Sequence record: OR757436.1
DNA: 64,000 nucleotides
Strand: one strand, 5' to 3'
Origin: Escherichia phage vB-EcoP-XT73
Below are positions 57,160 to 59,269 of the stretch, one piece after another (the first letter of the stretch is position 1; every line of letters begins with the position of its first letter). The translations under genes were made by a program, and so were the position numbers. Under the pieces are notes generated by a model, which saw nothing but the letters and a program-made list of their open reading frames with translations, did not search any database and was not told where the DNA came from.

Positions 57160-57238
57160 TCAATGGGTGCCTCTGACAAAGGGGCACAATTTAAAGGTTA
57201 ATTAGATGAAAGGGTTTACCCTTCAGGTGGATTAGAAA

Positions 57239-59269
57239 ATTTGTGGCATCGTATTAGCTGGCGGTAATCTGTCAAGCACTGATTTAGACGTATTTAACCA
57301 ACTCTTTTATGCTGGAGTATTCCGAGGGCAACATTCCTCTGGTATCTTTGGTCAGCGTAAGAGCACTAAGGAAGTCTTCACTTATAAAGAAGCTCTTCCT
57401 TCTTTCGCATTCATCCTACAAGATGAGTACAAGAAGTACACCACTGGTGAAACAGCTTACACTGTAGCGCCTTCATGGATTGTTGGTCACAGCCGTCATG
57501 CAACGAAAGGTGCAGTTAACGCCAAGAACGCCCATCCTTTCCAACATGGTAACATCACGCTGGTTCATAATGGAACCTTGATGGACCAAGATCTGTTACC
57601 TGACAGCAAAAACTTCGAGGTAGACAGTGAGAACATCTGCCACTCTATTAACACTATTGGTGCAGCAGAGACTATTCAAAAGCTGGATGGTGCTTTCACC
57701 TTAATCTGGCATGATGCTTCTGATAACCGCCTTCATATCATCCGTAACGAAGAGCGTCCTTTCCATCTCGCACGTTGTAACAGAGATTGGTTTGGTGCTT
57801 CTGAAGAAGACATGTTGATGTGGATTCTGAAGCGTTCTAAGTCTCACAAAAACCGTATTGATGAGCACTTTGAATGTAAAGTTGGTACAGAGTATATCTT
57901 TGACATGTCAAACAATAGTATGACTCTGGTTGAAGAGGTCGCCCACGAGCTTCCGGTTTTTACGGTAGTCAATCGTTGGGGCAATTACTATTCGAACAAC
58001 TACAGCCAAAGCAACTATCAAAGTTCCTCAAAAAGCAGTACAAGCAATCCCTACGACACGAAGCCGGGAGTGACAGCGGCAGACGTTCGTCGAAGAAACG
58101 CAGTGGTAAGTCAAAACAAAATCGCAAGCGATCGAAACATTGACATTCGCCGCGACATGACTGTGGAAATCACACCACACGAGTTTGTTCCTTATGCAAC
58201 TGCTGGTGCTGTTCCTTCTCGTGGTAAGATGATTGGTTATATCTACGATGAGAAATCTCAAGAGTATATCGAAGGTGATGTTCATAACGTAGATATTAAG
58301 GCTTATCAGGATGCCCTGAAAGACCCTAAAATCGTTTACCGTGGGACAGTATCCTGTATCTCCGAAGTTAATGCTATGGTTCGTTTAGTGATCACAGCAG
58401 GTCGTTTTGTTGACCCATCTCTGGAGAAAAAGGAGCCTGAGTCTACTACTGCTGACTTTGATGATGATATCCCTTTTGATATGAATGATAGTTTCGTCAA
58501 CAAGAATGGCGTTACTATCACTCGTAAATTCTGGGAAGCACATTCTCACGGAGATTGTGGTGGTTGTGACAAACACATTGATTGGAAGGATGCACCTAAA
58601 GCAGTCTTCGCATATCAGTGCTACTGGCACCCTGAATGTCTGGAAGGTTTGACTAAACCTAAAGATGAAGAAGAGGAGGAGACTCCTATCGGTGTTTGTG
58701 AAATCTGTGGTGAAGTTAAAACAGAAAACGAGTTTGATGATGAACTTAGTCGTCTTCGTGGTGAAGATATCTGTAAAGTCTGCGCTGTAGACGTAAAGAA
58801 GAAAGTATCTAATGCTACGATCAAAGATGGTTATGTCTGGATTAAAGCAACAGATACAACAAACGCCCGTCGTCCTGAATTTGCTTTACGTGTAACTGAA
58901 GATATGATCGGTCGTATGACTGTATTACCTTCCTCAGCGAAACAGACAGGCATCACTCTGGAGGATGTTGTTGATGCTTATGTTGAGAAACGTAGCAACA
59001 GTGTTTTTGCAATCTCAACTAAGCCAAAAAAGGAGGAACCTGCTGAGAAAGCAGGTGTGTTTCCTGAATCACGAACAGCTCTCCGCAAAACTGTTGTCAG
59101 CTTCGACGGAAACCGAAGCACTGACTTCACCAAAGCAATGTGGTCAACCCTCGGATACTGCTCAGAGTGTTTTAAGCAGATTCCGTGGCGTGATGCTGAA
59201 AGTTGTACGCTTGGTTCTATGAATCAAGTCTATTGTAATTCTCCTAAATGTTCATTGAATAGAGGTTAA
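57239..59269 (+). CDS. class-II glutamine amidotransferase (Ntn-hydrolase) domain fused to a Cys-rich C-terminal region; probable non-ATG (ATT) start
   Basis: CGIVLAGG..., RGQHSSGIFG, GHSRHATKG, HPFQHGNITLVHNGTL match the PurF-type N-terminal domain; nucleophile Cys is the codon after ATT 57239; AGGTGG SD 9 nt upstream; track start 57578 would delete the catalytic N-terminus. Confidence 0.6.
   Translation: MCGIVLAGGNLSSTDLDVFNQLFYAGVFRGQHSSGIFGQRKSTKEVFTYKEALPSFAFILQDEYKKYTTGETAYTVAPSWIVGHSRHATKGAVNAKNAHPFQHGNITLVHNGTLMDQDLLPDSKNFEVDSENICHSINTIGAAETIQKLDGAFTLIWHDASDNRLHIIRNEERPFHLARCNRDWFGASEEDMLMWILKRSKSHKNRIDEHFECKVGTEYIFDMSNNSMTLVEEVAHELPVFTVVNRWGNYYSNNYSQSNYQSSSKSSTSNPYDTKPGVTAADVRRRNAVVSQNKIASDRNIDIRRDMTVEITPHEFVPYATAGAVPSRGKMIGYIYDEKSQEYIEGDVHNVDIKAYQDALKDPKIVYRGTVSCISEVNAMVRLVITAGRFVDPSLEKKEPESTTADFDDDIPFDMNDSFVNKNGVTITRKFWEAHSHGDCGGCDKHIDWKDAPKAVFAYQCYWHPECLEGLTKPKDEEEEETPIGVCEICGEVKTENEFDDELSRLRGEDICKVCAVDVKKKVSNATIKDGYVWIKATDTTNARRPEFALRVTEDMIGRMTVLPSSAKQTGITLEDVVDAYVEKRSNSVFAISTKPKKEEPAEKAGVFPESRTALRKTVVSFDGNRSTDFTKAMWSTLGYCSECFKQIPWRDAESCTLGSMNQVYCNSPKCSLNRG

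What the first reader, a model, noticed from the sequence alone, without database searches (positions are those of the whole stretch)
57206..57241. Amidotransferase gene lacks an ATG: probable ATT initiation codon placed directly before the catalytic Cys
The conserved N-terminus (CGIV..., where Cys must be residue 1 after Met removal) is preceded by ATT (57239-57241) with an AGGTGG Shine-Dalgarno 9 nt upstream. The only in-frame ATG (57206) is separated from the Cys by an in-frame TAG (57233-57235). Initiation at ATT would give Met-Cys-Gly-Ile, the canonical class-II amidotransferase start, and would be a rare start-codon choice that could throttle expression. Alternatives are amber readthrough of a propeptide-like MKGFTLQVD-stop-KI leader, or a sequencing error.
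Basis: partly seen in the sequence, partly recalled or inferred. Interest (0 to 1): 0.6.

Follow-up and report, generated by a model that had tools for sequence, protein, structure and literature searches.

The report
ATT-started phage amidotransferase gene, hairpin-coupled
This phage's glutamine amidotransferase gene really does begin at the rare start codon ATT; GenBank already annotates it so for phiEco32, but ATT/ATC starts, usually with a small hairpin against the ribosome-binding site, recur in roughly a fifth of related phage genes, which looks deliberate and seems undescribed.

Summary
In this phiEco32-like phage the class-II (Ntn) amidotransferase frame opens after TAG 57233-35. It has no ATG/GTG/TTG for 114 codons, and ATT 57239-41 sits directly before the catalytic Cys codon (57242).

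The 50 nt around it are identical or nearly so in 98 phage genome records, so it is not a sequencing error. The 113 codons upstream of the first canonical start are under purifying selection (pN/pS ~0.2). Distant homologues have ATG at exactly this position.

Amber read-through is very unlikely. TAG is an ordinary stop here, no suppressor tRNA is present, and relatives have tandem stops or no leader ORF.

The ATT start is not new. The phiEco32 (2008) and SU10 GenBank records already start the CDS there, although most later records truncate the gene.

What I could not find described is the wider pattern. Among 136 distinct phage homologues, 32 start with ATT/ATC, more than GTG+TTG (9); none uses ATA. 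These starts co-occur with a 5-7 bp hairpin abutting a strong, fixed-register Shine-Dalgarno (17/32 versus 2/94, p=1.6e-10).

In this subfamily the 56-nt initiation region is invariant while synonymous sites are saturated. Its regulatory purpose is inferred, not shown.

The parts
56056..57159 (+). Upstream gene (Amidoligase_2 family, phiEco32 gp84 homologue). Its TAA lies 82 nt before the ATT.
   Evidence: ORF list; Pfam PF12224; annotation; distance.
57167..57187 (+). Terminator-like GC-rich hairpin after the amidoligase gene (GUGCCUCU-GACAA-AGGGGCAC). It lies outside the invariant block.
   Evidence: RNAfold. Stem sequence and loop differ between genera but still pair. Annotated 'terminator' in MK373770.
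57191..57246 (+). Invariant 56-nt block: TTAAAGGTTAATTAG + mini-ORF/hairpin + SD + spacer + ATT + TGTGG.
   Evidence: The 45 nt before the Cys codon have zero differences between Kuravirus (window) and three phages of the genera Suseptimavirus and Nieuwekanaalvirus, while synonymous sites just downstream differ at pS 0.69-0.76; the full block extent is read from alignment A3. 57203-57252 is also ~96% identical in Aeromonas phage BUCT695, whose protein is only 35% identical overall.
57193..57197 (+). AAAGG, a possible Shine-Dalgarno for the mini-ORF, 8 nt before ATG 57206.
   Evidence: Read from sequence. Conserved in Gordonclarkvirinae but absent in BUCT695 and L241. Function inferred only.
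57206..57235 (+). Nine-codon mini-ORF MKGFTLQVD ending at in-frame TAG 57233-35. The geometry stop-3 nt-AUU matches E. coli thrS-infC (UAA GGU AUU).
   Evidence: The infC geometry is from PMC3592434. The mini-ORF is present in BUCT695, where its two changes are both nonsynonymous. Its ATG is absent in L241 and L021.
57208..57224 (+). Hairpin abutting the SD: AAGGG (57210-14) / loop TTTA (57215-18) / CCCTT (57219-23), with a possible extra G57208-C57224 pair.
   Evidence: Detected (3' end at -16 from the start). BUCT695 changes only the loop (TTAA). L241 has AAGGGA-TTTA-TCCCTT, a paired insertion that keeps the stem. Equivalent hairpins of unrelated sequence occupy the same place in 17/32 ATT/ATC homologues versus 2/94 ATG homologues. 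RNAfold alone does not favour it strongly (z about -1.5; an alternative SD-sequestering fold is predicted).
57225..57230 (+). Shine-Dalgarno AGGTGG (AGGAGG in most other carriers of the same spacer).
   Evidence: duplex with the anti-SD -5.9 kcal/mol here; -9 to -12 in AGGAGG carriers.
57231..57238 (+). 8-nt A-rich spacer ATTAGAAA containing the in-frame TAG.
   Evidence: The identical 18-mer GGATTAGAAAATTTGTGG precedes at least 7 further divergent GATase lineages (27-57% aa identity to each other) in metagenomes.
57239..57241 (+). ATT initiation codon.
57242..57244 (+). TGT, the catalytic N-terminal Cys (Cys1 after Met removal).
   Evidence: Aligns to residue 1 of GlmS (1xff) and PurF (1ecb, 1ao0) in a profile search. 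Invariant column in A1.
57239..59269 (+). Full amidotransferase CDS: 676 codons plus stop, the phiEco32 gp83 homologue. An N-terminal Ntn glutaminase domain is followed by about 450 aa with no Pfam match.
   Evidence: Same length as phi32_83 (2031 nt).
57578..57583 (+). First canonical in-frame start codons (TTG 57578, ATG 57581). Many GenBank records use them as the start, yielding a 562-563-aa product that lacks Cys1, the Arg motif and the Asn-Gly oxyanion hole.
   Evidence: Conserved residues C1, R28-G29, H83-R85-A87-T88 and N110-G111 lie upstream of it.

Best explanation
Translation of the amidotransferase starts at AUU 57239. It is directed by the AGGUGG Shine-Dalgarno 8 nt upstream and decoded by initiator fMet-tRNA. 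Deformylase and methionine aminopeptidase then expose Cys1, the nucleophile of the Ntn glutaminase domain.

The AUU belongs to a stereotyped initiation module. A short hairpin ends exactly at the 5' edge of a strong SD, which sits in a fixed register about 8 nt before AUU/AUC. Phage amidotransferase genes have adopted this module repeatedly.

Shown:
- the start position
- coding constraint on the N-terminal 113 codons
- recurrence of ATT/ATC in the family
- the association between ATT/ATC and the hairpin
- invariance of the 56-nt region

Inferred:
- The weak, IF3-proofread start codon caps or gates the enzyme's synthesis. In an E. coli reporter AUU gave 6-8-fold less product than AUG.
- The strong SD, the A-rich spacer and the hairpin keep ribosome binding efficient and the site unambiguous.
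- In this lineage the 9-codon mini-ORF ending 3 nt before AUU may add termination-reinitiation, as at thrS-infC.
For: Sequence and frame:
- Only AAA and ATT lie between the in-frame TAG and the Cys codon.
- No canonical start occurs for 114 codons, a unique outlier in the window.

Conservation and coding constraint:
- ATT is invariant in 98 phage records.
- Codons 57242-57580 versus SU7, KBNP1711 and EP335 give pN/pS 0.19-0.20. Differences by codon position are 17-22 / 13 / 59-65. Shifted frames give pN/pS above 1.4.

Homologues:
- They carry ATG-TGT at the same position.
- The Cys aligns with Cys1 of GlmS and PurF. GATase_6 and GATase_7 score above their Pfam cut-offs.

Existing annotation:
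- phiEco32 EU330206 / NC_010324 and SU10 KM044272 start the CDS at this ATT.

Census:
- The first sample (IMG/VR) has 64 distinct initiation regions: 50 ATG, 11 ATT/ATC, 3 TTG.
- The expanded set has 136: 94 ATG, 23 ATT, 9 ATC, 6 TTG, 3 GTG, 0 ATA.
- In 25 of 32 ATT/ATC loci an in-frame stop lies upstream with no canonical start between.
- ATT/ATC lineages are scattered among ATG relatives on a rough NJ tree.

Hairpin and SD:
- A hairpin with its 3' end at -17..-12 occurs in 17/32 ATT/ATC loci versus 2/94 ATG loci (Fisher 1.6e-10). Shuffles average 1.9.
- Hairpins further upstream are equally common in both groups, 22% versus 21%.
- In a paired comparison with the nearest ATG relative, the hairpin is present only in the ATT/ATC member 19 times and only in the ATG member once (p=2e-5).
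- The SD is stronger and in a fixed register in the ATT/ATC group.

Expression and published efficiencies:
- SU10 proteomics detected the protein with 9 peptides.
- AUU efficiency and the infC stop-3 nt-AUU geometry are from PMC3592434.
Against: - There is no direct protein-level or ribosome-profiling evidence for the N-terminus. The SU10 mass-spectrometry table lists a 63.8-kDa model, the mass of the form truncated at the first canonical start, so N-terminal peptides may not have been searchable.
- The SD here (AGGUGG, -5.9 kcal/mol) is weaker than in other carriers.
- RNAfold does not single out the hairpin (z about -1.5) and proposes an alternative fold that pairs the SD.
- By a looser criterion, 13 of 63 genes in this window also have a hairpin near the SD. 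The hairpin is therefore notable at the family level, not in this genome alone.
- The second census sample was seeded from an ATT/ATC-rich clade.
- The association tests do not fully correct for shared ancestry.
- The reason for nucleotide-perfect conservation of 57191-57205, upstream of the hairpin, is not explained by this model.
Confidence: 0.8

Rival explanations
1. Initiation at AUU depends mainly on ribosomes that have just translated the 9-codon mini-ORF (57206-57235). They terminate at UAG and restart 3 nt downstream, so the mini-ORF, not free 30S binding, drives expression, as at thrS-infC. This is not exclusive of the best explanation.
For: - Stop-AAA-AUU has the same geometry as infC's UAA-GGU-AUU. 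At that junction reinitiation and de novo initiation contribute about equally (PMC3592434).
- The mini-ORF has a possible SD (AAAGG, 8 nt upstream), and the invariant block begins there.
- The mini-ORF ATG is kept in BUCT695.
- In three other carriers of the 18-mer (L119, L140, L156) an open frame of 153-167 codons, probably a real upstream gene, ends at exactly this TAG.
Against: - L241 (60% aa identity, same hairpin type) has no ATG, GTG or TTG for the leader, and has TAG-TAA before ATT.
- L021, L124, L143 and L144 have no ORF feeding that TAG.
- BUCT695 has no SD for the mini-ORF.
- Most ATT/ATC loci of other spacer types have no in-frame stop at -6.
Confidence: 0.2
2. The gene starts at ATG 57206. 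The amber codon is read through or suppressed, and the 12-residue leader is removed autocatalytically, as with the 11-residue propeptide of B. subtilis PurF.
For: - The leader is in frame and of propeptide-like length.
- Ntn amidotransferases with propeptides exist (established knowledge; 1ao0 begins at the mature Cys).
Against: - Only tRNA-Arg(TCT) is found in the window.
- TAG terminates 7 of 55 long ORFs.
- L241 has tandem TAG-TAA and L095 has TAA directly before ATT.
- L021 and others have no leader start.
- The leader shows no synonymous variation despite saturated synonymous divergence elsewhere. Its only two changes, in BUCT695, are nonsynonymous, so conservation is at the nucleotide level, not the peptide level.
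- The codon before Cys is a near-cognate start (ATT, ATC, TTG or GTG) in 41 of the 42 non-ATG loci, the exception being ATG-TGC-TGT, rather than a random sense codon.
Confidence: 0.02
3. The N-terminal region is not expressed: sequencing error, a pseudogenised 5' end, or a real product starting at ATG 57581, as many GenBank records annotate.
For: Automatic annotations of XT18, Paul, SR02, SU7, KBNP1711, EP335, BUCT695 and Pseudomonas phage O4 start downstream of the Cys.
Against: - 98 independent genome records agree.
- pN/pS is about 0.2 in the correct frame over the supposedly untranslated 113 codons.
- All catalytic motifs (C1, R28-G29, H83-R85-A87-T88, N110-G111) lie in that region.
Confidence: 0.02

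Closest known systems
E. coli infC (IF3) and pcnB: the classical AUU-initiated genes
   Same: - An AUU start with an SD.
- The start codon is conserved and limits expression.
- At infC a stop codon lies 3 nt upstream of AUU (UAA GGU AUU), as here (UAG AAA AUU). See PMC3592434.
   Different: - Those are single host genes. Here ATT/ATC recurs in about 17-24% of a phage gene family and outnumbers GTG+TTG.
- Here it is coupled to a hairpin abutting the SD.
- Autoregulation by IF3 is known for infC. Any IF3 link here is untested.
Class-II (Ntn) glutamine amidotransferases: GlmS, PurF, AsnB
   Same: - The N-terminal Cys aligns with Cys1.
- The Arg, Asn-Gly and Asp motifs are conserved.
- GATase_6 and GATase_7 match.
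   Different: - The cellular enzymes I know start ATG-TGx or carry a propeptide (own knowledge).
- This protein has a roughly 450-aa C-terminal part with no family match instead of a synthase domain.
- Several records name it 'GlmS-like' or 'purF', which is not supported beyond the glutaminase domain.
B. subtilis PurF-type propeptide processing
   Same: A short in-frame peptide precedes the catalytic Cys.
   Different: An in-frame TAG interrupts it, and relatives have tandem stops or no leader.
Hairpin-plus-SD translational operators and enhancers of phages (T4 gp43 operator; T4 gene 25/38 hairpins). Recalled from memory as a lead only.
   Same: A small hairpin lies immediately 5' of, or next to, the SD of a phage gene.
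   Different: - No binding protein is known here.
- Hairpin sequences differ between lineages.
- The SD is not split or sequestered.
- The association is with a non-AUG start codon.

Membership tests
Class-II (Ntn) glutamine amidotransferase | Catalytic Cys at position 1 of the mature protein | tested here: met
   Profile position 1 (Cys) aligns to residue 1 of GlmS 1xff and PurF 1ecb/1ao0. It is an invariant column in A1. That it becomes residue 1 after Met removal is inferred.
Class-II (Ntn) glutamine amidotransferase | Glutaminase-domain motifs (Arg of HxRxAT, Asn-Gly oxyanion hole, Asp binding the substrate amino group) and Pfam domain match | tested here: met
   R85, N110-G111 and D128 are invariant. 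PF13522 scores 55 bits (cut-off 27) and PF13537 scores 27.4 (cut-off 25).
GlmS / PurF proper (names used in several GenBank records) | C-terminal sugar-isomerase (SIS) or phosphoribosyltransferase domain | tested here: not met
   No Pfam family matches residues about 200-675. PDB matches cover only the glutaminase domain.
Genes initiated at AUU (infC type) | No canonical in-frame start available; AUU preceded by an SD at workable spacing | tested here: met
   TAG-AAA-ATT-TGT, with AGGTGG 8 nt upstream.
Genes initiated at AUU (infC type) | Start codon conserved among orthologues and positionally equivalent to ATG in homologues | tested here: met
Genes initiated at AUU (infC type) | Protein N-terminus demonstrated; expression sensitive to IF3 | not testable with these tools
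   The only proteomics found (SU10) lists a 63.8-kDa model, the truncated size. No IF3 data were found.
Propeptide-bearing Ntn enzymes / programmed amber read-through | Continuous reading frame, or a dedicated suppressor, from an upstream start to the Cys | tested here: not met
   An in-frame TAG intervenes, and TAG-TAA does so in L241. No suppressor tRNA is found, and TAG is used as an ordinary stop.
Termination-reinitiation coupling | Upstream ORF with its own start signal ending within a few nt of the restart codon | tested here: met
   The mini-ORF is 57206-57235, with AAAGG 8 nt before its ATG and its stop 3 nt before ATT.
Termination-reinitiation coupling | Upstream ORF conserved wherever the restart module occurs | tested here: not met
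   Absent in L241, L021, L124, L143 and L144. Present in BUCT695, and as an open frame of 153-167 codons in L119, L140 and L156.
T4 gene 60-type translational bypass | Matched take-off and landing codons flanking a stop plus hairpin, giving a functional product | tested here: not met
   The take-off codon GAT before TAG has no matching landing codon upstream of the Cys codon. The next in-frame GAT is codon 14, which would delete Cys1 (read).
Known RNA families (riboswitches, including glutamine riboswitches; frameshift elements) | Rfam covariance-model match | tested here: not met
   The best hits are 16-17 bits against gathering scores of 44-70.

The most novel reading that the evidence does not exclude
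The hairpin / fixed-register SD / AUU-AUC unit is a dedicated and exchangeable translational control device of phage amidotransferase genes, not just a weak start.

It might make synthesis of the glutaminase depend on the IF3 state of the infected cell, on upstream termination, or on a factor that reads the hairpin. It has been gained, lost or transferred many times.

Two observations point towards exchange:
- Nearly the same roughly 50-nt unit occurs in E. coli Gordonclarkvirinae and in Aeromonas phage BUCT695, whose proteins are not nearest relatives.
- An identical 18-mer stands in front of amidotransferases only 27-57% identical to each other.
Probability: 0.3. Interest if true: 0.8.

Novelty: new variant of a known kind. 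Interest (0 to 1): 0.55.

Why it matters
Annotation. Most GenBank records of these phages, and of Pseudomonas phage O4, Aeromonas BUCT695 and others, truncate the gene and delete its catalytic cysteine, because gene callers ignore ATT/ATC. Functional predictions and proteomic searches inherit the error.

Biology. AUU/AUC starts are vanishingly rare in bacteria, with infC and pcnB the textbook cases. A gene family in which they recur in about a fifth of members, outnumber GUG+UUG, never use AUA, and travel with a positioned hairpin and a strong SD would be a natural system for studying how and why weak start codons are selected. Cultured, tractable phage-host pairs are available (phiEco32/E. 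coli, O4/P. aeruginosa).

The 56-nt invariant block also shows that something beyond the codon itself is under very strong selection.

Tried and rejected
- Rfam scan of 57000-57500: nothing near threshold, including glutamine riboswitches and frameshift elements.
- Suppressor tRNA: only tRNA-Arg(TCT) is present.
- Frameshift or slippery-site readings of A-AAA-TTT-G, worked through by hand: none lands in the Cys frame.
- Gene 60-like bypass: there is no usable landing codon.
- Sigma-70 promoter or terminator in the element: none on the + strand. One antisense TTGACA-16-TACGAT match at 57275-57248 is not conserved in SU7.
- Single-sequence folding: z-scores are only -1.5 to -1.9. An alternative fold pairing GGUUUACC with GGUGGAUU is not supported, because the two BUCT695 changes break it. 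A long-range helix (57196-57202 with 57253-57259, and GAUG with CAUC) is predicted, but there is too little variation to test it.
- Pattern GGATTAGAAAANNTGTGGNNTNGT: it found no ATG variant of this exact spacer, only one chance hit, L022.
- Many metagenome hits to the 18-mer are an unrelated coding family or chance.
- N4-type hairpin promoters: considered and rejected, because the predicted start site would fall inside the SD, and phiEco32 has no virion RNA polymerase (own knowledge).
- Literature: searches found no paper on ATT/AUU starts in phage amidotransferases. The phiEco32 genome paper (PMC2587145) is not held.
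Full report
**1.

The region belongs to a phiEco32-like E. coli podophage (Kuravirus, Gordonclarkvirinae). A 1.2-kb query matches 68 records at 95-99% identity and about 28 more at roughly 80%.

AGGTGG is 57225-57230, so the spacer to ATT is 8 nt rather than 9.

After the TAG the frame stays open for 677 codons. The first ATG/GTG/TTG is TTG 57578 / ATG 57581. That 114-codon gap is the largest of any long ORF in the window.

**2. Not an error, and the 5' part is translated**

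The 50 nt at 57203-57252 are 100% identical in 68 phage records. They are 98% identical in 28 more; in the three of these read base by base the single change is a synonymous GGC>GGT. They are 96% identical in two Aeromonas phage BUCT695 records.

I compared the 113 codons between ATT and the first canonical start with three phages of the genera Suseptimavirus and Nieuwekanaalvirus:
- pN/pS is 0.19-0.20, with pS 0.69-0.76.
- Differences fall 17-22 / 13 / 59-65 on codon positions 1 / 2 / 3.
- The two shifted frames give pN/pS above 1.4.

So this stretch is coding in this frame. It holds all the catalytic motifs (C1, R28-G29, H83-R85-A87-T88, N110-G111). A profile of the family aligns its first residue to Cys1 of E. 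coli GlmS, E. coli PurF and mature B. subtilis PurF. Pfam GATase_6 and GATase_7 score above their cut-offs.

**3. ATT stands where homologues have ATG**

Phages of Proteus, Vibrio, Cronobacter, Salmonella (7-11), Aeromonas and Pseudoalteromonas all read ATG-TGT/TGC at the aligned position. So do the closest non-Gordonclarkvirinae relatives, at 65-67% aa identity.

Only AAA and ATT lie between the in-frame stop and the Cys codon. ATT is therefore the only near-cognate start available.

**4. Already annotated, but mostly mis-annotated**

The original phiEco32 record (EU330206, 2008), its RefSeq copy and the SU10 record (KM044272) start the CDS at this ATT. The specific claim is therefore not new.

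Most other records start the gene downstream and lose Cys1:
- XT18 and Paul start at the equivalent of 57581.
- SR02 starts at the equivalent of 57317 and calls the gene 'purF'.
- SU7, KBNP1711, EP335 and BUCT695 are also truncated.
- Most rows show no feature over the start.

SU10 proteomics detected the protein with 9 peptides. The table lists a 63.8-kDa expected mass, which is the size of the truncated form, so N-terminal peptides may not have been searchable and the result says nothing about the N-terminus.

I found no paper discussing the start codon. The phiEco32 genome paper was not available.

**5. Rivals**

Amber read-through with a propeptide is contradicted on several counts:
- The window holds only tRNA-Arg(TCT).
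- TAG ends 7 of 55 long ORFs.
- A relative with 60% aa identity (L241) has TAG-TAA-ATT, and another (L095) has TAA-ATT.
- Other carriers of the same spacer have no leader ORF.
- The leader shows nucleotide-level rather than peptide-level conservation. There are no synonymous changes despite saturated pS, and the two BUCT695 changes are nonsynonymous.

No frameshift or bypass reading reaches the Cys frame. Rfam gives nothing.

**6. The wider pattern**

I collected homologues by protein similarity and read the codon before the conserved Cys.

The first IMG/VR sample gave 64 distinct initiation regions: 50 ATG, 11 ATT/ATC and 3 TTG.

A second sample plus genome contigs brought the total to 136 distinct regions: 94 ATG, 23 ATT, 9 ATC, 6 TTG, 3 GTG and no ATA. 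One further region reads ATG-TGC-TGT. The second sample was seeded from an ATT/ATC-rich clade, so 17% is the less biased figure.

In 25 of the 32 ATT/ATC loci an in-frame stop precedes the codon with no canonical start between. On a rough NJ tree the ATT/ATC lineages are scattered among ATG relatives. Many have an ATG relative as close as their nearest ATT/ATC relative.

Cultured examples include Pseudomonas phage O4, which has an ATC start and is annotated 36 codons short.

**7. A coupled hairpin and a stereotyped SD**

I scored stems of at least 5 bp.
- A stem with its 3' end at -17..-12 from the start, that is, touching the SD, occurs in 17/32 ATT/ATC regions and 2/94 ATG regions (Fisher 1.6e-10). 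Shuffled controls average 1.9, with a maximum of 7.
- Hairpins further upstream (-45..-27) are equally common in both groups, 22% versus 21%. This serves as a negative control.
- Against each locus's nearest ATG relative, the hairpin is present only in the ATT/ATC member 19 times and only in the ATG member once (p=2e-5).
- Stem sequences are unrelated between lineages, but the position is fixed.
- The ATT/ATC group also has a stronger SD (mean -8.3 versus -7.0 kcal/mol, p=9e-4), in a fixed register: G 91% at -9 and T 75% at -7, essentially GGAGGAT.

In the window the hairpin is AAGGG-TTTA-CCCTT (57210-57223). BUCT695 changes only the loop. L241 has AAGGGA-TTTA-TCCCTT, a paired insertion that keeps the stem.

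Caveats:
- By a looser criterion, 13 of 63 genes in this window have a hairpin near the SD.
- Single-sequence folding is not decisive.
- The tests are not fully phylogenetically corrected.

**8. An invariant initiation region**

Between Kuravirus and the two other genera, the 45 nt before the Cys codon have no differences, while neighbouring synonymous sites are saturated. The alignment shows the identical block running from 57191 to 57246.

Almost the same unit occurs in BUCT695 (Grimontviridae). Its amidotransferase is 35% identical overall and 55% identical in the N-domain, and it clusters with ATG-starting Cronobacter and Salmonella phage genes. The window's nearest outgroups are ATG.

The exact 18-mer GGATTAGAAAATTTGTGG also precedes at least seven further amidotransferase lineages in viral and metagenomic contigs. 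These are 27-57% identical to each other. Each has its own hairpin and usually AGGAGG. That search was for the exact 18-mer, so its identity is by construction; the finding is where it occurs. In three of these carriers an open frame of 153-167 codons ends at the in-frame TAG, 3 nt before ATT.

**9. How it most likely works**

Shown:
- the start position
- coding constraint on the N-terminal region
- recurrence of ATT/ATC across the family
- the hairpin and SD association
- invariance of the initiation region

Established knowledge:
- Initiator tRNA reads AUU poorly, and IF3 discriminates against it.
- In an E. coli reporter AUU gave 6-8-fold less than AUG. The infC junction (UAA GGU AUU) gave four-fold less than its AUG version, with reinitiation and de novo initiation contributing about equally. 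An A/U-rich enhancer raised AUU output about 3-fold (PMC3592434).
- Methionine aminopeptidase removes Met before Cys (own knowledge).

Inference:
- The module maximises and fixes ribosome binding through the strong SD, the A-rich spacer and a hairpin that bounds the site.
- It leaves the codon-anticodon check as the limiting, possibly IF3-sensitive step.
- This caps or times synthesis of a glutaminase.
- In Gordonclarkvirinae and BUCT695 the mini-ORF ending at UAG-AAA-AUU may add reinitiation. It is not a general part of the module.

Unexplained:
- Why 57191-57205 is invariant.
- Why the spacer ATTAGAAA is so widely kept.
- Why ATA is never used.

**10. Verdict**

The finding is real and its main interpretation is right. 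For phiEco32 it is already in the database. The interest lies in the family-wide module, which I could not find described.

Noticed in passing
window 57578-57583; loci L002, L003, L004, L005-L008, L252, L253: The amidotransferase gene is widely 5'-truncated in GenBank and RefSeq records. Starts are placed at internal ATG/TTG codons, the product is named GlmS-like or 'purF', and Cys1 is missing. This includes Pseudomonas phages O4 and HHBS10_2, whose true start is ATC.
   Followed up: yes
L008 (Aeromonas phage BUCT695) about 3805-4005; L241 130-200: An unannotated stretch lies just upstream of the conserved element. It holds an HNH-endonuclease-like N-terminus (MDKVLKKITHQGDCWLWTGCINSDGYPKE*) followed, in another frame, by an XRE-type helix-turn-helix segment (...LSQSKVAKLVGCSQTHVSKLELGKYSL*). 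L241 shares the HTH part. This may be a decayed mobile gene next to a possibly exchanged initiation unit.
   Followed up: partly
window 57193-57202; L008 about 4003-4012; L038-L042 upstream regions: Relatives with ATG starts, and BUCT695, carry AAATGTAA(A/T) just upstream. This matches the AATGTA consensus of phiEco32 gp36-dependent promoters (PMC12276001). In the window the motif is altered to AAAGGTTAAT yet perfectly conserved within the subfamily.
   Followed up: partly
window 57167-57187: The terminator-like hairpin after the amidoligase gene keeps its pairing through stem and loop changes between genera (GTGCCTC...GGGGCAC versus GCGCTC...GGGCGC). It contrasts with the invariant block that follows.
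   Followed up: partly
window 57900-59266 (protein residues about 220-675): The C-terminal two thirds of the protein match no Pfam family. They contain several CxxC pairs (e.g. CGGCDKH...CYWHPEC, CEICGEV...CKVCA, CSECFKQ...CNSPKC) suggestive of zinc-ribbon repeats. The repeats are shared with BUCT695.
   Followed up: no
window 53662-62032: The gene sits in the phiEco32-type cluster of COOH-NH2 ligase (54626-55432), Amidoligase_2 (56056-57159), a weak ATP-grasp match (59715-60911) and GGACT/AIG2-like cyclotransferase (61613-62032). The cluster's product is unknown.
   Followed up: partly
window 57248-57275, minus strand: A sigma-70-like promoter match (TTGACA-16-TACGAT) points antisense into the initiation region. 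It is not conserved in SU7, so it is probably chance.
   Followed up: partly
L113, L115, L122, L123, L127, L128, L132, L133, L147, L152, L155: An unrelated, recurrent metagenomic sequence family contains the same 18-mer in another frame (ATG ACG GGA TTA GAA AAT TTG TGG CAC ATG...). It is not an amidotransferase.
   Followed up: no
census loci L033-L251: ATA is never the codon before Cys (0 of 136), although ATT (23) and ATC (9) are common. The loop GTT recurs in five of the SD-abutting hairpins, and TTTA in three.
   Followed up: partly
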